From: Escherichia coli
GTDB taxonomy: Bacteria > Pseudomonadota > Gammaproteobacteria > Enterobacterales > Enterobacteriaceae
Direction: 5' to 3' (one strand)
Length of the DNA: 64,000 nt
Assembly (NCBI RefSeq): GCF_044324875.1
Contig: NZ_CP172185.1
Shown: piece by piece, positions 24,764 through 31,241 of the stretch
Layout of the letters: every line of letters begins with the position of its first letter
Numbering within the stretch: position 1 is the stretch's first letter
Program-made: the position numbers and the translations under genes
The notes under the pieces: generated by a model
The model's input: only the letters and a program-made list of their open reading frames with translations
Told to the model about the DNA's origin: nothing
The model's database searches: none

Positions 24764-24847
24764 ATGGACAAGCAACGCGGTTTTACACTTATCGAACTGA
24801 TGGTGGTCATTAACAGTAAATTACTGTACAAATACCGCATCTGTTAA
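24764..24847 (+). pseudogene. ppdD: ppdD 5' fragment: first 15 codons of the type IV prepilin (MDKQRGFTLIELMVV) fused to 12 island-derived codons, then stop
   Basis: ATG at 24764; the N-methyl-Phe prepilin leader GFTLIELM is intact up to codon 15; frame then runs into AT-rich island DNA (INSKLLYKYRIC*). Confidence 0.75.
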
Positions 24848-25181
24848 TTCATCTCTCTCCCACAATGCCACAATCCATAACATATTGATTTTAATACATA
24901 ATGATATCAAAAGGATTTGAACCATCTTAACCATCACTTCCCATTTTTAGACCCCCTTCTACTATATTTCTCGTCAGTAGAGATCTAATGGCATCTTTTC
25001 ACCTACGCACTAATAACGTATCCTTTGCTTTCGCCAAAATGGTGGTAATCATCTTTAGAACATAGTAAAAATACTGTTGATTTCTATATAGTTCTACCTC
25101 TCCTTTAGTTGTTATTAAGATGGCAGTTTCAAATCAGGAACACATAGGTATCATGTACTAACAGCTTTATAACTTAATCAG

Positions 25182-26468
25182 GTGCTAACCATGGACTCGA
25201 AATCTCTTGTTGAACTTTCCCATGATATACAATCCGGACTAGGAAACATTGACGTTCCAGATTTTGATAACATCAAAACTATCGGAATGGCATCAATACT
25301 AGCAATGCATATACGCGGATTGGGAGAAATTGATTATGAAGTTTTAAGGAAAGTCAGTGACTTCTTTTTCAACATACCTTCATATGCTTTAAAAAGCGTA
25401 TTGGAAGTACTGGCTGAGATAGAATATGTAGATTTAATAACGAAAGACAAAAAAATATTGTCAGTAATTCCAAACGTTCCTCGATTCAAAGATCTCTATC
25501 AAGGTGTTGGTGATTATTTCACATTTAGCGATCTCAACGAACATGAGCAAGGCACATTGATAATATTATCTAATCTTCAAAACAAACCCGAAAACAGAGA
25601 CAAACTAATTCATTCTACAGGCATCGACAATACTCTTTTTTCTCGTTGTTTAGAGATTGGTGAAAAAGGTAACTATTTTAGAAATTATAGAGCTAGAGGA
25701 AAAAACATCATAGCTAGCCCATTTTATTTTGCCGATAATTTAGAGTCACTTGTCGATATTTCAGCCAAAATTGGTTCGAATGATATTGATGCTGTTTTAA
25801 AAATTATAAAAGATAATCAGGGATGGCCTCTCTCACTGATCGAATCACAATTAGAAATCGGTGGAAAAAAGCTAACAAAAGTACAAAAAGAACTTTTAAT
25901 TGGTTTTTGCCAAGAGGGTGTACTCAAACCCCCTTCAATTGATTTCGGAAACCAAAAACAAGAAACATTCATATTCACACCGAGGCCCGGAAATATAAAA
26001 TTGAATGCAGCTAACAGAGAGATTTATGAACGAGCAATGGCGTTAGTTTCTTGCGTTAGGAAAGGACAATTACTGCACGACAAATATAGAATAAGGCTTC
26101 CAGTTAGGATATTGGAATCATTAAAAGAAAAAGGTTATCTTAATCAAAATTCAGAAGCTGCATCCCAGTATAGGAATCTGGTGTTTTTGAAGGTTGGAAT
26201 GCTAAAAGCTAAGGATCATAACAAGTGGGAATTTCATTTAATAAAAACAGAAGAAAACATTGAAGCATTAGATTTAGCAATAAGTCTCTTAAAAACAGGA
26301 GAACTTGCAAATTTAGAAGTTGATCAAAATGCAAAAATAGCATTAACACAAGATGAAAAATACATTCAATCGATCATTAGCTCCGCAGAACTTAGAACTA
26401 GAGAGAAGATAAAACAAAGCGAGGAAGCAAAAGAACAATTTGAACAACTGATTTTCGAAATGGAGTAA
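25182..26468 (+). CDS. uncharacterised protein, island cargo gene A (no recognisable motif)
   Basis: 428-aa ORF from GTG at 25182; more likely ATG at 25191 (MDSKSLVELSHD...) preceded by AGGTG; AT-rich codon usage; first gene of a coupled pair. Confidence 0.6.
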   Translation: MLTMDSKSLVELSHDIQSGLGNIDVPDFDNIKTIGMASILAMHIRGLGEIDYEVLRKVSDFFFNIPSYALKSVLEVLAEIEYVDLITKDKKILSVIPNVPRFKDLYQGVGDYFTFSDLNEHEQGTLIILSNLQNKPENRDKLIHSTGIDNTLFSRCLEIGEKGNYFRNYRARGKNIIASPFYFADNLESLVDISAKIGSNDIDAVLKIIKDNQGWPLSLIESQLEIGGKKLTKVQKELLIGFCQEGVLKPPSIDFGNQKQETFIFTPRPGNIKLNAANREIYERAMALVSCVRKGQLLHDKYRIRLPVRILESLKEKGYLNQNSEAASQYRNLVFLKVGMLKAKDHNKWEFHLIKTEENIEALDLAISLLKTGELANLEVDQNAKIALTQDEKYIQSIISSAELRTREKIKQSEEAKEQFEQLIFEME

Positions 26469-27571
26469 TGGTAATGGCTAACTTAGATAAAGACCTAGGT
26501 TTGAAGCAAGACGCTATAAGGTTTTGCTTGATAAATGGTTACTTGCCATTTTTAGAAGTTAACGTTGAAAACTATAGGGAACTTTCTGATACATCTACAA
26601 TTATAACAGATGTAGATGTTTTAGGGGTTGCTTTTGATATAACTGGAAAAACCAGAAAGATAATTTTCGATTGTAAAACCATTAAAAATACCAGCCCTAT
26701 TAATAGAGCGTTTTGGGCTTCCGGTGTTATGAATTTTTTAGGCTATGATGAAGCATTCATCATATTAAGAAAGAAAGCAAGTGAGGCCCATAGACTTTCC
26801 GCAAAAACAATTAATGTCCACCTTTTTGATGAAGATCAAATGAAAGGATATGCTCAATCATTTTCAATGAATTTCAATATTGATTTAAGCTACTCTACGG
26901 ACATTAATAATTGGATAAGTATACAGGAAGTATATAAAACAGATAAAACCATCCAAAAATATGGCGAATTTTTAGCAAGTTCGGTTCCTACAGAAAATGA
27001 TCCAGCGAAGAATTTGAGAAGATTTATTGCTGCTTTACAAAAAGTGAAGAATGAACTAGACCCTCAAAAAAATAAACACAGAGCAATTTACTTGCATAGT
27101 CTAATGACATTCTCATATATTATGGCATGCTTAGTGCAGCAACTAAGAGGGTTAATTGATTTTGATTATAATCAGAATGAATTCACAAGACTTCTCAAAT
27201 ATTATATCTGGGGAGGGAAGGATAGCTTTATATTAAGACATAAGATGAGAGAACTAATCTCATCTAATGACAGTTCGATTCAAAATATAGAGCCAGAGTT
27301 AAGGAATTGGGATGACTTTATTGAACTCACAAGGAGTCTACTTGACTCTCCTAATGATATAATTAAATGTTGCCATGTGTTACGTGAATTTAGTTTTTTA
27401 GAACTATCCATGCATGACATTAAAAAGGATGAGCAACTATCCACTCTAATTTCAGATAATTCAAGAATTCGTCAATTTATAATGATAATGGCTAGATACT
27501 TAACCAACTCGATGAAAATGCCAAAAGATTTCATTAACGATCTAGTATCAATATTTGATAGATTGAGATAA
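26468..27571 (+). CDS. uncharacterised protein, island cargo gene B, with N-terminal PD-(D/E)xK-like nuclease motif
   Basis: 367-aa ORF; ATG overlaps the stop of gene A (TAATG); alternative ATG at 26474 has better GGAG spacing; motif TDVDVLGV...(18 aa)...IIFDCK. Confidence 0.6.
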   Translation: MVMANLDKDLGLKQDAIRFCLINGYLPFLEVNVENYRELSDTSTIITDVDVLGVAFDITGKTRKIIFDCKTIKNTSPINRAFWASGVMNFLGYDEAFIILRKKASEAHRLSAKTINVHLFDEDQMKGYAQSFSMNFNIDLSYSTDINNWISIQEVYKTDKTIQKYGEFLASSVPTENDPAKNLRRFIAALQKVKNELDPQKNKHRAIYLHSLMTFSYIMACLVQQLRGLIDFDYNQNEFTRLLKYYIWGGKDSFILRHKMRELISSNDSSIQNIEPELRNWDDFIELTRSLLDSPNDIIKCCHVLREFSFLELSMHDIKKDEQLSTLISDNSRIRQFIMIMARYLTNSMKMPKDFINDLVSIFDRLR

Positions 27572-27577
27572 AAAGAA

Positions 27578-27609
27578 GAGCAGGCTCGAATTAAATTTCG
27601 TGCCTGCTC
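27578..27609 (+). terminator. Hairpin after cargo gene B
   Basis: gagcaggc-(16 nt)-gcctgctc inverted repeat 7 bp after the stop at 27571; no clear T-run. Confidence 0.35.
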
Positions 27610-27708
27610 ACCATATAAACAAATGATAATAACTCATTCAACTAGATTATCTTTAATTCAGAGCAGTAATGATTTTCTTAATAACAATTCCCCTTTCTGA
27701 ATCCCATC

Positions 27709-28266
27709 TCAGGAGGCATTCATTTCTTTTTTCACGCGAAACACTGTAGCCCTGCCACAATCGCACAACTTTGCAATCTCATCCGGTGTGTTCTTCCCAG
27801 CTTGAAGCATCTCAATGATTTTACTGTGTAATTCTTTGTTCTTTTGCTTTCCTTTATACTTCTTAGCCTCTTTAGCAAGGGCAATTCCTTCGTTGCGACG
27901 TGATGCGATCATTCCCCGCTCAAATTCTGCAACGGCTCCCATCATGGTTAAGATTAAACGAGATTGTGGGGAGTTATCGAAACTCATTGAGTTAGCAAGG
28001 AACTGAACAGTGATCCCGCGAGCAACGAGGCTATCAATCATTTCCAGCAAATCGCGGGTATTACGTGCAAGGCGATCAATCGAGTGAGTCATGAGCGTAT
28101 CACCTTCGCGGAGGTGTGAAAGCAGGTTCAACAATTCAGGTCTCTCGCTGGTGGACTTACCTGATTCTTTCTCGGTGACGATTTTGTCACAAACAGGTTC
28201 CAGTACTGCCAACTGACGCTCAAGATTCTGATCCTTTGTTGAGACTCTCGCGTAACCAAAAATCAT
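27709..28266 (-). CDS. small serine recombinase (resolvase/invertase family)
   Basis: ORF 27709..28296; likely start MIFGYARVSTKDQNLERQ (ATG at 28264-28266 on the minus strand, preceded by GAGGGCAGGGAA); catalytic Ser in the YARVST motif; C-terminal HTH. Confidence 0.8.
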   Translation of the reverse strand: MIFGYARVSTKDQNLERQLAVLEPVCDKIVTEKESGKSTSERPELLNLLSHLREGDTLMTHSIDRLARNTRDLLEMIDSLVARGITVQFLANSMSFDNSPQSRLILTMMGAVAEFERGMIASRRNEGIALAKEAKKYKGKQKNKELHSKIIEMLQAGKNTPDEIAKLCDCGRATVFRVKKEMNAS

Positions 28267-28285
28267 TTCCCTGCCCTCACCGCTG

Positions 28286-28356
28286 ATAAGTATCATTTAA
28301 ATTAACTGAATGATACAGTATCATTTAAATTCTTTCAATGTCTAAATGATACTAAA
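28286..28356. repeat. res-like recombination site: two adjacent palindromes built from four GTATCATT(T) half-sites
   Basis: GTATCATT(11 bp)AATGATAC at 28290-28316 and GTATCATTT(17 bp)AAATGATAC at 28318-28352, directly upstream of the resolvase start. Confidence 0.5.
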
Positions 28357-28814
28357 CGAGACAAGAAAAACGGGTATCGTTAGGGAGTACCCAAAAGAGA
28401 TTTTTGATCGTGCGTTTTTTAGTCAATGTAGGGTTAGTGAAAAGTTCAGTACCGAGATCTGAGTTCACGGCATTTTGTCGACGGGGTTGAACCTGATTAG
28501 GCGAACGAGATTTTAAATCAGGCGGAATAAAACAAGTTGTACTTTTATCTGAGTAAACGATCCCTTTAACTTTTTAGTCAGAAATCGTGATACTAGGGGT
28601 TTGGTTATTTTGTGTCCTTAAGGCCAGTACTTTTAGCGAGGACGAAAAAACGGCCTACATGAGAACGCTTACAGTAACTTAAGTATATTATCCAAAAAGT
28701 CACTTAACTTAAATCAATTTGGATGCAAAATCGCCACACTTTGCAAGTGAACACATACCGGGCAACAAGCAAATAAAAAAGGCCACTTTCGCGACCTTGT
28801 ACCAGTACAAACAC

Positions 28815-29174
28815 TCATTCAGAACGATCAAGTACCATATATGCTGGCTGACACATGCTGCCCCGCTCCTGTAGCCAGTAGTAATCAAGATCGGCAACAC
28901 GCACGTCCAATCCAGAATCTACACGGTTGATCTGTAACCGTAGCCCTACAGTATCCTTGTACGATAAACCAGATTTAACATTGTATTTGTACTTAACACC
29001 GTTTTCCTGTTCAAACTGTTTAAGGAAAGGCGTCATTTGTTTCTGAATTTCTTTCAAACAAATAACCTCATTATCAATAGCAAAGGGGGGTTCTGTTTTT
29101 CCATCAGGTACAGCAGCCTGTAAATGAAAGGAAGTACTCAACAATAACAGCATTGCAACAGAAGTCTTTTTCAT
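28815..29174 (-). CDS. small secreted or periplasmic protein of unknown function
   Basis: 119-aa ORF with signal peptide MKKTSVAMLLLLSTSFHLQA; 43 bp downstream of the membrane protein gene on the same strand. Confidence 0.5.
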   Translation of the reverse strand: MKKTSVAMLLLLSTSFHLQAAVPDGKTEPPFAIDNEVICLKEIQKQMTPFLKQFEQENGVKYKYNVKSGLSYKDTVGLRLQINRVDSGLDVRVADLDYYWLQERGSMCQPAYMVLDRSE

Positions 29175-29217
29175 TTTAATTCCTTATTAAAGAACAGTAC
29201 ATTATATTTCAATGGAC

Positions 29218-30258
29218 TTAATAACAATATTTTATATTTCCTTCGGGTTTTCTCATGCATTTAATTCCTTCAGGAATATAATCAGTTACGGGAGCAGGTC
29301 TGGCATCAGGTCTTGAAAGACGATTGGATATAGAAGACAACAGACTGAAAACACACTCATTAAATGATTTTTGATATTTATTTTTTTCATAAAAGTACTG
29401 CATGGTGATTTTATCTCTTTCGTATTGCAATTCTTTGCCAAGCTGAATCCTATCCATATCAATTCCATTTCTCATAGCATTAAATCTTTCGTTCAATAAA
29501 TTAAATTGAGATTTATTCCATTCATTTAAAGGAAATAAAGAATTGTTAAGCCTTTGCCTACAATTAGATTGCTCGATAGCTGACATGTATTCTTTCATAC
29601 TAACGCCAATATCTAAGTATGTGAGTTGTCCAGCAGTTCTATCAACTGAGTTATTAGGGTAAGATTTAATTTCAGTAAGTATTGACTCTGTTAATACTGC
29701 ATTTTCTTCTAAATCTTTGCTAATAGTTATTTGAGCTTGTTCTCTTTTATCCTTATCAAATATTGAAATGTATTTCTTTACTATATCCTGATTAGCTTTC
29801 TCGGCTGCTACTAACGCATCTTGAACCTTCTTTTCCGCCGCTTTAACTCGTTGTTCTTCTACAAATTTCGCGTAGTCATCAGTATTTGTAATGTGATTTT
29901 CACGAGCGATAGAAAACTCTTTACTATCTTTAAAACCAAGTTTTTGTGCTCTGGCTCCATCGCTTGAAGATCGGGCAGAACTTGCCACGAAAGCGAGCAC
30001 AATGATCAGTACAGGAACCGTATAATTATTAACGAGTTTATAGGGTAAGAACTTCGCTTTAAGCGTACCATAACCCAAAACAGCCCAGCCTATCGCGGCA
30101 GTACTTGCCAGTAGCTGGCACAATCCAGCGACGGAAAGCATGATTACCGACCAGAAGCCTGTACCGACTGCGAAAAGATCACCAAATTTCTCCATTGACG
30201 CAAGGAATAAAAACACTCCCCAAATGCCATAAAATCCTATTTTCAAATATTTACTCAC
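29218..30258 (-). CDS. membrane protein of unknown function (three N-terminal TM helices, coiled-coil soluble domain)
   Basis: 346-aa ORF; hydrophobic segments at about residues 7-22, 36-64 and 81-95; Lys/Glu-rich predicted coiled coil; AT-rich. Confidence 0.55.
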   Translation of the reverse strand: MSKYLKIGFYGIWGVFLFLASMEKFGDLFAVGTGFWSVIMLSVAGLCQLLASTAAIGWAVLGYGTLKAKFLPYKLVNNYTVPVLIIVLAFVASSARSSSDGARAQKLGFKDSKEFSIARENHITNTDDYAKFVEEQRVKAAEKKVQDALVAAEKANQDIVKKYISIFDKDKREQAQITISKDLEENAVLTESILTEIKSYPNNSVDRTAGQLTYLDIGVSMKEYMSAIEQSNCRQRLNNSLFPLNEWNKSQFNLLNERFNAMRNGIDMDRIQLGKELQYERDKITMQYFYEKNKYQKSFNECVFSLLSSISNRLSRPDARPAPVTDYIPEGIKCMRKPEGNIKYCY

Positions 30259-30493
30259 CGCAATTATCCTTTAATAATTTTCCAAATCGATGGTTCGTTC
30301 TATTTGTATTATCGACAATAATTCGTTTGCCTTTAGGTAGATCCCTTAAAAAGGAATCCCCCCAAAATTTATAGATTAGCAGTTGTACCACTCTCACTGT
30401 TTTGTCACTCCCATTATCTTCTCTCAGGTCAAAAGTACGGACTTAAAGCCGTCCGTGTTCAGGTGCTCAAGAGTAGCACGCATATCAATAAAT

Positions 30494-30584
30494 GATCGAT
30501 AAAAACGATCAATTAATGGATTATTGATTGCTATAATCGATCAATTACTATTAATTCAATACAAATCAATAGGTAAAATCGATC
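30494..30584. repeat. Cluster of four GATC-centred (A)TCGATCAA(T/G) motifs in an ORF-free island segment
   Basis: GATC at 30494, 30507, 30539 and 30581 within 90 bp of AT-rich DNA, each in a similar CGATCAA context. Confidence 0.4.
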
Positions 30585-31241
30585 AAGAGGATTCGTCATC
30601 CATGAAAGGGGTTATGTATCTGATTTCAATACAGGGAGTATTAGCGATACCATCACGCAAACGCTCTTAAAGCGTAGCTACGGCGTTTTGTAGGGTTTTG
30701 GTCATTCATGTGTGTCAGTAATGAACATCGCATTCAGGGGCTTCCTGTGCGTTTTGTCCGAAACACCATCATGAAGGGGGACAGATCGGATCGGGGTCGC
30801 TTCGCTCTGGTCAGTACTGGATAGTTCTTTTCCAGTAACTGAAACCGCAGATCCCCCACTAAGTACACAAAGGAATCAGTAGTATAATAAGTAATTAAAT
30901 AGCAATCAGTTATGTACTGAATGACAGAACAGAAAAACGCGATTGGTTCGCTCTGCCAGTGACTGAAAGGAACGAAGCAGTAGAACCTAATCCAGCGAAC
31001 AGTACACGCAAAGCGGGTACTGTTTAATTGTTTTATCTATGTAAACAATGGGATAGCTATCAAGTACTCACTGCGTGAGCACTCTCACTAACTACCCGAA
31101 ACAGTTCGCTTGCTTCGCCGCTCCTACTTTCAGGTAGTTAATTCGCTTTCGCTCGTTGTGATGTCCGAAATTTATTACCTATAGTATTATAAGGTATTAT
31201 TTTCCGGACATTTATGTATTTTTATGATGGTGTTCTGGACA

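What the first reader, a model, noticed from the sequence alone, without database searches (positions are those of the whole stretch)
27709..28360. Resolvase with upstream res-like site but no transposase
A 185-aa small serine recombinase (YARVST catalytic motif, C-terminal HTH) is preceded by four copies of the half-site GTATCATT(T), arranged as two palindromes with 11-bp and 17-bp spacers. That is the architecture of Tn3-family res subsites with differing spacers. No transposase or terminal inverted repeats are present, so this looks like a remnant of a Tn3-family element or a stand-alone multimer-resolution or cargo-shuffling module inside the island.
Basis: partly seen in the sequence, partly recalled or inferred. 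Interest (0 to 1): 0.5.

Follow-up and report, generated by a model that had tools for sequence, protein, structure and literature searches.

The report
Island resolvase with complete res site
A small DNA-cutting-and-rejoining enzyme and its complete three-part target site sit inside a 9.6-kb mobile island in the E. coli chromosome, where they most likely keep the island in single copies and have also been the seam at which related islands swapped parts, including anti-phage cargo.

Summary
A 185-aa small serine recombinase (27709-28266, minus strand) is preceded by four GTATCATT half-sites forming a 27-bp and a 35-bp palindrome. Together they form a 112-bp res of 28/21/35/1/27 bp, matching Tn3/gamma-delta and SGI1 res layouts, with a promoter-like site embedded in sites II/III.

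This geometry holds in relatives down to about 50% protein identity, including two plasmids, and the gene is under strong purifying selection (dN/dS 0.02-0.06).

It is not a Tn3 relic. The 64-kb window has no transposase, and no plasmid in PLSDB carries a relative above 57% identity. The gene is a core part of a family of small integrative islands. These share three backbone genes, use different integrases and carry variable defence-type cargo. The window's island lies in ppdD and has a large serine recombinase.

Best reading: a Tn3-type, self-repressing resolution system that reduces island multimers or tandem arrays, as shown experimentally for SGI1.

In several close relatives homology breaks exactly at the central TA of site I, usually with a swapped outer arm. 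This is the known signature of resolvase crossover and supports module shuffling. It is a new member of a known kind; nothing has been tested experimentally.

The parts
24812..34396 (.). Integrative island (9,585 bp) inserted in the pilin gene ppdD
   Evidence: Homology to ordinary E. coli chromosomes stops at 24811 and resumes at 34397. Only 6 of 5,426 genomes are occupied at this site.
27709..28266 (-). Small serine recombinase (resolvase-type), 185 aa, with catalytic Ser9 in the YARVS motif and a C-terminal HTH
   Evidence: Pfam Resolvase E=1.4e-36. PDB matches: gamma-delta resolvase 2.5e-25, Sin 1e-24, Tn3 resolvase 1.5e-24, Gin 1.6e-22. R7, S9, Q13, D64, R65 and R68 are invariant in 14 relatives. 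dN/dS is 0.02-0.06.
28290..28316 (-). res subsite III (27 bp, GTATCATT-N11-AATGATAC), proximal to the gene; its gene-distal half-site (28309-28316, next to site II) holds the promoter -10 (TATCAT, 28310-28315)
28318..28352 (-). res subsite II (35 bp, GTATCATTT-N17-AAATGATAC); its spacer contains the promoter -35 (TTGAAA, 28333-28338)
   Evidence: The length is 35-36 bp in all relatives that match.
28353..28373 (-). 21-bp spacer between sites I and II; contains a conserved half-site-like pentamer GAGAC (28358-28362) of unknown role
28374..28401 (-). res subsite I (28 bp), the predicted crossover site. Plus strand: GTATCGTTAGGGAG-TA-CCCAAAAGAGAT, with the central TA at 28388-28389
   Evidence: Conserved in register with a central TA in 26 of 28 aligned relatives. 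Homology breakpoints among relatives fall here.
28402..28700 (.). Conserved non-coding module abutting site I; function unknown
   Evidence: 78% mean column identity across 12 islands, including islands with a different 207-aa recombinase. No ORF, Rfam hit or covariation.
28815..30258 (-). Two conserved backbone genes of the island family (119-aa secreted-type protein; 346-aa membrane-type protein), function unknown
   Evidence: No family hits.
31242..32717 (-). Conserved backbone P-loop/helicase-like protein (491-aa ORF; PGAP aa)
   Evidence: Weak Pfam ResIII/DEAD hit at the N-terminus; phrog_2467 at 6e-38; synteny.
32793..34355 (-). Large serine recombinase (520 aa), the likely integrase of the island, next to the ppdD junction
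25182..27571 (+). Variable cargo of this island: two overlapping genes (428 and 367 aa) with no recognisable domains
   Evidence: The same slot holds Hachiman, TIR+NACHT or a KAP NTPase in sister islands.

Best explanation
This is a complete, functional Tn3-type site-specific resolution system that belongs to an integrative genomic island, not to a transposon.

Proposed mechanism (inferred): resolvase dimers bind three subsites upstream of their own gene. These are site III (27 bp) and site II (35 bp), which are accessory sites that also cover the gene's promoter so the protein represses itself, and site I (28 bp), where crossover occurs at the central TA.

When two res copies lie in direct repeat on one molecule, the accessory sites assemble a synaptic complex and site I is cut and rejoined. 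This deletes the DNA between the copies. Direct repeats arise in tandem island arrays at the attachment site, in circular multimers after excision, or when two related islands sit side by side.

The day-to-day effect is to keep the island monomeric, as shown experimentally for the SGI1 island. Over evolutionary time, the same reaction between non-identical islands joins the resolvase-plus-cargo side of one island to the backbone-plus-integrase side of another. This makes site I a seam for module and cargo exchange.

Shown here: sequence architecture, conservation, selection, and breakpoints at site I. Inferred: binding, catalysis, self-repression and the multimer-resolving role.
For: 1. Protein: Resolvase domain plus HTH with conserved catalytic residues and strong purifying selection (dN/dS 0.016-0.062).

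2. Architecture: three subsites of 28/35/27 bp with 21- and 1-bp spacers, I-II centres 52.5 bp apart (five helical turns), and the 27-bp site next to the start codon. Published layouts are Tn3/gamma-delta box I 28 bp, box II 34 bp and box III 25 bp, with 22 bp between boxes I and II. SGI1 is 28/22/30/2/25, with I-II centres 51 bp apart, box III next to the gene and the promoter over box II (PMC12217951).

3. Conservation: 20 of 34 related loci pass a strict three-site pattern with the same geometry (I 27-28, spacer 21-23, II 35-36, spacer 1, III 26-27). The rest show it in the alignment apart from single core mismatches or a site III deletion. A 3.7-kb plasmid and an IncI1 plasmid with 51-57% identical proteins keep the layout.

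4. Promoter: TTGAAA-17-TATCAT lies inside sites II/III, and a -35-like hexamer recurs at the same place in distant relatives.

5. Crossover footprints:
- Window vs L002: 11% divergence through the gene and sites III/II, last mismatch at 28373, then no mismatch for about 2 kb.
- L003 vs L085: 99% identical up to the TA(C) of site I, then unrelated.
- Of 12 locus pairs at least 90% identical on the gene side of the TA, 6 are unrelated on the far side. In 5 of these the outer arm is a different sequence that still ends in GAGAC, GAGAG or a similar half-site-like pentamer.
- 4 of 7 partial-homology classes among E. coli genomes (23 of 36 records) begin or end inside the 28-bp site.
- The same signature is the accepted evidence for inter-transposon exchange at res site I in the Tn3 family (Lima-Mendez et al., 10.1101/848275).

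6. Context: the gene is a core part of an island family integrated by large serine or tyrosine integrases at ppdD, yggR/yggS, thiM/rcnR and ybhA.
Against: - No experiment: binding, cleavage, directionality and self-repression are all inferred.
- The window holds only one res, so no substrate is visible in this genome.
- It is not shown that these islands excise, replicate or form tandem arrays. A test for circular metagenomic contigs was inconclusive.
- Protein sequence alone does not separate resolvase from invertase: gamma-delta, Sin, Tn3 and Gin all score about equally, and PHROGs labels the family 'DNA invertase'.
- Site I is asymmetric. The outer arm ends ATCTC rather than GTATC, and the arms are 12 and 14 bp around the TA.
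- Some cargo junctions in relatives are not at site I (L006 about 3-14 bp outside it, L003 about 185 bp away). The window's own cargo lies on the other side, joined within the last codons of the recombinase gene. Res crossover therefore cannot explain all cargo variation.
Confidence: 0.62

Rival explanations
1. Dedicated cargo-capture system. The recombinase inserts circular gene cassettes carrying a site-I-like sequence into site I, like an integron but with a serine recombinase. It would thereby build the variable defence region.
For: In some relatives cargo starts exactly at the site I centre or outer arm. In L089 a 1.2-kb insert is followed by a second copy of TA plus an outer-arm-like sequence (TATCCAAAGTGAT). 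In L087, which has a different 207-aa recombinase, cargo lies between a left half of site I and a TA-plus-outer-arm that leads into the non-coding module. Cargo upstream of res is usually transcribed away from it.
Against: Tn3-type systems with accessory sites strongly favour intramolecular deletion; fusion is rare (PMC12217951). The far-end 'sites' have poor inner arms with no GTATC. Other cargo junctions lie outside site I. The window's own cargo is on the 3' side of the gene with no site there. No free cassette circles are known.
Confidence: 0.15
2. DNA invertase (Hin/Gin/Pin-like) that flips a segment to switch gene expression.
For: PHROG 125 'DNA invertase' scores 2.4e-58, and database names include 'DNA invertase Pin-like'. 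The half-site core TATC resembles hix/gix half-sites, but this comes from memory and was not tested. In more distant genera the recombinase-res module has the opposite orientation relative to the backbone genes.
Against: No second site in inverted orientation exists in the island or window. The best inverted-repeat candidate (32732-32768) lacks the GATAC core. The GTATC-N25-GATAC at 30616-30650 is not conserved in diverged relatives. A three-subsite array next to the gene is a resolvase feature, not an invertase one. All E. coli islands examined have the same orientation.
Confidence: 0.07
3. Decayed remnant of a Tn3-family transposon, with no present function.
For: The res layout is that of Tn3-family elements and no transposase is nearby.
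Against: The gene is intact and under strong purifying selection. All three subsites and their spacing are conserved over wide divergence. The neighbouring backbone genes are the same in many islands and genera. There are no inverted repeats. No relative above 57% identity occurs on 72,556 plasmids, where Tn3-family elements abound.
Confidence: 0.04
4. Mainly a DNA-binding repressor. The protein uses the palindromes only to control its own and neighbouring promoters, and recombination has been lost.
For: A promoter-like site is embedded in sites II/III. Tn3 resolvase is also a repressor. Three relatives lack site III yet keep the other sites.
Against: The catalytic Ser and the Arg/Asp residues are invariant. 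Site I, distal from the promoter, is conserved, and relatives show breakpoints at its central TA with swapped outer arms, which requires catalysis.
Confidence: 0.07

Closest known systems
Tn3 / gamma-delta TnpR resolvase with its 114-bp res (sites I, II, III)
   Same: Small serine recombinase with a C-terminal HTH. Three dimer-binding subsites of unequal length lie upstream of the gene, with the shortest next to the gene and the crossover site distal. The I-II centres are about five helical turns apart, the central dinucleotide is TA/AT, and the promoter lies inside res.
   Different: Protein similarity is distant: E about 1e-25 to the solved gamma-delta and Tn3 resolvases, no closer than to Sin or Gin. 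The half-site is different (GTATCATTT). Subsites are 28/35/27 bp rather than 28/34/25, and the II-III gap is 1 bp. There is no transposase and no terminal inverted repeats. The host element is an integrative island with its own integrase.
SGI1 Res/res resolution system (Veress, Szabo and Kiss 2025, PMC12217951)
   Same: A Tn3-like three-box res lies upstream of a resolvase gene inside an integrative, non-transposon island. It was shown to remove tandem island multimers, and intermolecular fusion is rare. This is the closest functional precedent.
   Different: The island family is different, with no SGI1 backbone, oriT or Mps genes recognised here. Box II is 35 bp rather than 30. The site here is intact, whereas in most SGI1 variants an integron interrupts it. 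Sequence relatedness to SGI1 Res was not tested.
Inter-transposon recombination at res site I in the Tn3 family (Lima-Mendez et al. 2020, 10.1101/848275)
   Same: Homology between related elements breaks at the central dinucleotide of site I. Passenger modules (there toxin-antitoxin pairs) sit just beyond site I and are exchanged this way. The same pattern is seen here.
   Different: Here the partners are integrative islands and the exchanged DNA includes defence-type cargo and backbone or integrase modules.
Plasmid multimer resolvases (Sin of staphylococcal plasmids; resolvase-like small recombinases of pipolins)
   Same: Stand-alone resolvase plus res serving a circular replicon or excised element. 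Pipolins pair a large serine integrase with a small resolvase-like recombinase. Plasmid-borne relatives of this protein keep the same res.
   Different: Sin uses two subsites plus a host bending protein; here there are three subsites. Whether this island has a replicating circular form is unknown.
Hin/Gin/Pin DNA invertases
   Same: Same protein superfamily, with a similar score to Gin.
   Different: Invertases act on two inverted crossover sites flanking a segment and need an enhancer. Here a single three-subsite array sits next to the gene and there is no inverted partner.

Membership tests
Small serine recombinase (resolvase/invertase) superfamily | N-terminal catalytic domain with the nucleophilic Ser in a YxRVS motif and conserved Arg/Asp residues | tested here: met
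   Pfam PF00239 E=1.4e-36. The alignment to gamma-delta resolvase pairs Y5/R7/S9/Q13/D64/R65/R68 with Y6/R8/S10/Q14/D67/R68/R71. These residues are invariant in 14 relatives.
Small serine recombinase (resolvase/invertase) superfamily | C-terminal helix-turn-helix DNA-binding domain | tested here: met
   HTH_7 E=0.001 and HTH_29 E=4.6e-4 at residues 149-184. The alignment to gamma-delta extends to residue 183.
Tn3-type res site | Three imperfect palindromic subsites of different lengths upstream of the gene, site III proximal, site I distal, total about 110-120 bp | tested here: met
   28/21/35/1/27 = 112 bp at 28290-28401. The definition is from PMC12217951.
Tn3-type res site | Site I to site II centre distance in helical phase (usually 5 turns) | tested here: met
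   52.5 bp in the window and 52.5-54 bp in 20 relatives.
Tn3-type res site | Strand exchange at the central 2 bp of site I | tested here: inconclusive
   Comparative only: homology breaks at the TA, with swapped outer arms, in several relatives. No biochemical mapping has been done.
Tn3-type res site | Resolvase binds all three subsites and resolves direct repeats only | not testable with these tools
   Needs gel-shift or footprint and two-res plasmid assays.
Tn3-family transposon | DDE transposase (TnpA) adjacent to tnpR/res | tested here: not met
   No transposase is annotated anywhere in the 64-kb window. Island ORFs give no transposase hit.
Tn3-family transposon | Terminal inverted repeats of about 38 bp bounding the element | tested here: not met
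   The longest inverted pair in the island is 37 nt at 73% complementarity, and one of its arms overlaps site II and the I-II spacer.
DNA invertase system (Hin/Gin type) | Two crossover sites in inverted orientation flanking an invertible segment | tested here: not met
   Pattern scans find no second site I, II or III in the window. The only extra GTATC-N25-GATAC (30616-30650) is not conserved in diverged relatives.
DNA invertase system (Hin/Gin type) | Fis-dependent enhancer | not tested
   No tool was used for this.
Island-borne resolution system (SGI1 type) | Intact res plus resolvase gene as part of the conserved backbone of an integrative island | tested here: met
   The gene and res are syntenic with three backbone genes and an integrase in islands at four or more E. 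coli loci and in other genera.
Island-borne resolution system (SGI1 type) | Eliminates tandem or multimeric island copies | not testable with these tools
   Needs transfer or excision assays with wild-type and recombinase-deleted islands, as in PMC12217951.

The most novel reading that the evidence does not exclude
The resolvase/res module is the engine that moves anti-phage cargo between otherwise unrelated integrative islands. When two islands of this family sit in tandem or are fused, deletion between their two res sites joins the 'recombinase + cargo' half of one to the 'backbone + integrase' half of the other. In some lineages site-I-like sequences even allow cassette-like insertion at site I. 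This would give a concrete mechanism for the recently reported but unexplained finding that small serine recombinases are reliable markers of defence systems (Andersen et al. 2025, PMC12632615).
Probability: 0.35. Interest if true: 0.7.

Novelty: new member of a known kind. Interest (0 to 1): 0.45.

Why it matters
Small integrative islands that carry anti-phage systems but have 'only recombinases' are common in E. coli, and how they move and exchange cargo is unclear (Hochhauser et al. 2023). Small serine recombinases have been proposed as markers of defence systems without a known role (Andersen et al. 2025).

This locus gives a precise, testable handle. It provides a 112-bp res with defined subsites, a predicted crossover dinucleotide, and natural mosaics whose junctions fall on that dinucleotide. 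If confirmed, it extends the SGI1 finding (island multimer control by a Tn3-like system) to a second, unrelated island family. It would also link that system to the turnover of defence cargo.

It also flags a two-gene cargo of unknown function as a candidate defence system.

Tried and rejected
1. Second site for inversion or deletion. The longest inverted repeat in the island (28333-28369 vs 32732-32768, 73%) has no GATAC/GTATC core in its second arm and was rejected. A GTATC-N25-GATAC at 30616-30650 shares TACTCCCT with site I, but becomes GATTC or GTGTC in diverged relatives, including one with a different recombinase, so it was rejected as a conserved binding site.

2. Structured RNA in the conserved non-coding module 28402-28700. 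There was no Rfam hit at E<=1 and no ORF. RNAalifold on both strands gave weak energies (-7.3 and -3.0 kcal/mol) and almost no covariation.

3. Function of the backbone genes. PHROGs, PADLOC, NCBIfam, Pfam and PDB sequence searches gave nothing beyond a weak P-loop/ResIII signal. Whether the island replicates therefore remains open.

4. Circular or episomal form. Metagenomic contigs of 11-14 kb carrying whole sister islands end in the duplicated attachment-site repeat and have no end overlap, which is inconclusive.

5. Assigning the protein to resolvases versus invertases by sequence. Solved resolvases and Gin score about equally, and no NCBIfam model passes its cut-off.

6. Tn3 relic. Rejected on selection, synteny, absence from plasmids and absence of a transposase or inverted repeats.
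Full report
**What is there**

The window is a stretch of the E. coli MSI001 chromosome: 100% identity over 27600-28700 to NZ_CP076645.1, with annotation. On the minus strand, 27709-28266 encodes a 185-aa protein beginning MIFGYARVSTKDQ. It has a Pfam Resolvase catalytic domain (E=1.4e-36) and a weak C-terminal helix-turn-helix.

The protein aligns end to end with gamma-delta resolvase (E=2.5e-25), Sin (1e-24) and Tn3 resolvase (1.5e-24), and over its catalytic domain with Gin invertase (1.6e-22). The nucleophilic serine and the conserved Arg/Asp/Gln residues are invariant in 14 relatives.

The half-site GTATCATT occurs six times in 64 kb, against 1.76 expected. Four copies lie at 28290-28352 and form a 27-bp and a 35-bp palindrome separated by one base.

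I fetched the regions upstream of homologous genes and aligned them. They came from 24 genomes spanning Enterobacterales, Aeromonas and Pseudomonas (50-97% protein identity), several E. coli islands and two plasmids.

Both palindromes are conserved in register. A third, distal site appears 21 bp further from the gene, at window 28374-28401. Its plus strand reads GTATCGTTAGGGAG-TA-CCCAAAAGAGAT, and the central TA is kept in 26 of 28 aligned sequences.

The full array is 28 bp (site I), 21-bp spacer, 35 bp (site II), 1 bp, 27 bp (site III), then 23 bp to the start codon. A strict pattern finds the same geometry in 20 of 34 loci: I 27-28, spacer 21-23, II 35-36, spacer 1, III 26-27, with I-II centres 52.5-54 bp apart. 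Most of the others fail only by a single core mismatch. Three lack site III, and two of those carry frameshifted genes.

A sigma-70-like promoter, TTGAAA-17-TATCAT (10 of 12 matches), sits with its -35 in the site II spacer and its -10 in a half-site of site III. A GAGGG ribosome-binding sequence precedes the ATG at 28266.

**Comparison with known res sites**

Veress et al. (PMC12217951) summarise Tn3-family res as follows:
- It is about 120 bp long and lies upstream of the resolvase gene.
- It has three subsites built from inverted 12-bp binding sites, with box III next to the gene.
- Box I and box II centres are usually five helical turns apart.
- Cleavage occurs at the central 2 bp of box I.
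- The promoter overlaps the boxes.

The same paper, which takes its box boundaries from alignment with Tn3 and gamma-delta, gives box II as 34 bp in those elements; the remaining Tn3/gamma-delta figures (box I 28 bp, box III 25 bp, a 22-bp gap between boxes I and II, 114 bp in all) I quote from memory. It gives SGI1 as 28/22/30/2/25. The window's 28/21/35/1/27, with 52.5 bp between the I and II centres, fits this pattern closely. On architecture this is a Tn3-type res. On sequence, the half-site (GTATCATTT) and the protein form a separate lineage.

**Where it sits**

Chromosomal homology to other E. coli stops at 24811 and resumes at 34397. The recombinase therefore lies in a 9,585-bp island that splits the pilin gene ppdD. 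Only 6 of 5,426 complete genomes carry an island there.

In the recombinase's reading direction the island holds:
- a 520-aa large serine recombinase next to one junction, the likely integrase;
- a P-loop/helicase-like gene;
- a roughly 1-kb non-coding stretch with iteron-like repeats;
- a 346-aa gene and a 119-aa gene;
- a roughly 300-bp conserved non-coding module;
- res and the small recombinase;
- two cargo genes with no recognisable domains.

The same backbone (small recombinase, 119-aa, 346-aa and helicase-like genes) recurs in other E. coli islands. These sit at yggR/yggS and ybhA with other large serine recombinases, and at thiM/rcnR with a tyrosine integrase. It also recurs in Raoultella, Pantoea, Aeromonas, Rahnella, Providencia and others.

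What varies is the DNA next to the small recombinase: Hachiman, TIR+NACHT, a KAP NTPase, SMODS+SLATT, AAA-ATPase pairs, an annotated 'anti-phage protein', and here two unknown genes.

**Why it is not a transposon relic**

- There is no transposase anywhere in the window and no terminal inverted repeats.
- The gene is under strong purifying selection (dN/dS 0.016-0.062 against ten relatives).
- Among 72,556 plasmids, the usual home of Tn3-family elements, the best relative is 57% identical. Among phages the best is 46%.

**Evidence that site I is a crossover point**

(a) Window versus the thiM island L002. The recombinase gene and sites III/II differ at 75 of 659 positions. The last mismatch is at 28373, one base before site I. 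After that there is no mismatch for about 2 kb. At that divergence a mismatch-free run longer than about 25 bp would be unlikely, so by my own arithmetic the switch lies within site I.

(b) L003 and L085, two islands at the same yggR/yggS locus, are 99% identical from the island end through the gene and res up to the TA(C) of site I. They are then unrelated until the backbone resumes. L086 behaves the same way. Their outer arms differ (CCCAAAAGAGAT, CTCTACTGAGAC, CTTCAAAGAGAG) yet each ends in a half-site-like pentamer (GAGAT, GAGAC, GAGAG).

(c) Three Serratia/Edaphovirga loci share a nearly identical inner arm and spacer but have different outer arms and unrelated DNA beyond.

(d) Of 12 locus pairs at least 90% identical over the 100 nt on the gene side of the TA, six are at random-level identity on the far side. 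Five of those have a swapped outer arm. Two further pairs are 100% identical on the far side but only 90% on the gene side.

(e) In a search of all complete E. coli genomes, 23 of 36 records with partial homology have a boundary inside the 28-bp site. This is 4 of 7 boundary classes: ending at 28390 or at 28400/28401, or starting at 28382 or 28393.

A module edge defined only by selection should fall at the outer edge of the site and leave the outer arm unchanged. Swapped arms around a fixed TA are what strand exchange at the centre produces. This is the same argument used for exchange of passenger modules between Tn3-family transposons at res site I (Lima-Mendez et al.).

A second recombinase family (207 aa) in islands at ffs has its own res-like array with different half-sites. 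That array is joined to the same non-coding module, again with identity changing inside its site I.

**Mechanism proposed**

Shown: the sequence features above. Inferred from the Tn3/gamma-delta and SGI1 literature:
- Dimers occupy sites I-III.
- Sites II and III both repress the embedded promoter and build the synaptic complex, which restricts the reaction to two res copies in direct repeat on one molecule.
- Cleavage and exchange occur at the TA of site I.

The natural substrates would be tandem island arrays or circular multimers. For SGI1, an active res system removes such multimers within a few generations, and intermolecular fusion is rare but detectable. Pipolins with a large serine integrase plus a small resolvase-like recombinase have been interpreted the same way.

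If two different islands of this family lie in tandem, the same efficient deletion would yield a chimera. The chimera would be joined at site I and would carry one island's recombinase-side cargo with the other's backbone and integrase. That matches the mosaics observed.

**Limits**

- Nothing has been tested biochemically.
- Excision, replication or tandem formation of these islands has not been shown. The backbone genes gave no informative hits, and contig-end analysis was inconclusive.
- Sequence alone does not separate resolvase from invertase.
- Not all cargo junctions are at site I. L006 has a 1-kb insert whose boundary lies roughly 3-14 bp outside it, and L003's cargo starts about 185 bp away.
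- In the window itself the cargo lies beyond the 3' end of the recombinase gene. The junction falls within the last codons, so the protein is six residues shorter than in relatives. The window also lacks a conserved 66-bp inverted repeat that follows the stop codon elsewhere.
- A cassette-insertion model has suggestive cases (L089, L087), but their far-end half-sites are weak.

**Verdict**

This is a new member of a known kind, a Tn3-type resolution system serving an integrative island, with SGI1 as the experimental precedent. Its interest is moderate. The system itself is conventional. However, the clean site-I mosaics in a family of defence-carrying islands bear on the open question of why small serine recombinases travel with defence systems.

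Noticed in passing
window 25182-27571 (+): The island's cargo is two overlapping genes (428 and 367 aa) with no Pfam, PADLOC, PHROG or NCBIfam match. They occupy the slot that holds Hachiman, TIR+NACHT or a KAP NTPase in sister islands, so they are a candidate for an undescribed defence system.
   Followed up: partly
window 28402-28700: A non-coding module abuts site I and is conserved (78% mean column identity) across 12 islands, including islands with a different 207-aa recombinase. It has no ORF, no Rfam hit and no RNA covariation on either strand. Its function is unknown.
   Followed up: partly
window 30482-30554: An inverted, iteron-like repeat (ATAAATGATCGATAAAAACGATCAATTA / ATTATTGATTGCTATAATCGATCAATTA) lies in the roughly 1-kb gap between the 346-aa gene and the helicase-like gene. 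It is detectable even in distant loci (L017, L022, L026) where the backbone proteins are not found, so it is a candidate origin of replication or transfer.
   Followed up: partly
window 30616-30650: GTATC-N25-GATAC has the same 35-bp span as site II and shares TACTCCCT with site I. Its half-sites are not kept in diverged relatives, so it is probably not a binding site.
   Followed up: yes
L003:11889-11954 and the equivalent positions in L002, L004-L010, L013 and L085-L089; absent from the window near 27709: In relatives the recombinase stop codon lies inside a conserved 66-bp imperfect inverted repeat (CTGATATAGCGGAAGGGGGTA ... GAATCCTTTCGATATC) with a variable hairpin-like centre. The repeat marks the border to downstream cargo. 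The window lacks it, and its recombinase is six residues shorter. Its role (terminator or a further site) is unknown.
   Followed up: partly
L087:9788-9920, L090:11882-12010, L091:11813-11940: Sister islands at ffs carry a different 207-aa small serine recombinase. It has its own res-like array (half-sites CAGTCTG / GGTTCATTA; site I AGGTCTGCTAGAGG-TA-TACTTAAAATGAGAA) joined to the same non-coding module. L090 and L091 are identical for 120 bp up to 9 nt past the TA and then drop to roughly 50-70% identity (estimated by eye).
   Followed up: partly
L024 and L027 (Mangrovibacter), L005: Three relatives have lost site III through a 28-bp deletion. In two of them the recombinase gene is frameshifted, showing occasional decay of the system.
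   Followed up: no
window 24764-24847 and 34397-34801: The island splits the type IV pilin gene ppdD. PGAP annotates a short N-terminal fragment on one side and a re-started ppdD ORF on the other. Only 6 of 5,426 complete E. coli genomes have this site occupied.
   Followed up: partly
window 34200-34600; window 26468-27571: The window is not everywhere identical to NZ_CP076645.1: 99.3% over 34200-34600, and one amino-acid difference in the 367-aa cargo protein. Over 27600-28700 it is 100% identical.
   Followed up: no
L092 (plasmid CP057083.1, 3,702 bp): A 3.7-kb circular replicon carries only a 51%-identical recombinase with the same 28/22/35/1/27 res, an inovirus-type Gp2 replication protein and a DUF2158 gene. 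It shows this resolvase lineage serving a small replicon.
   Followed up: partly
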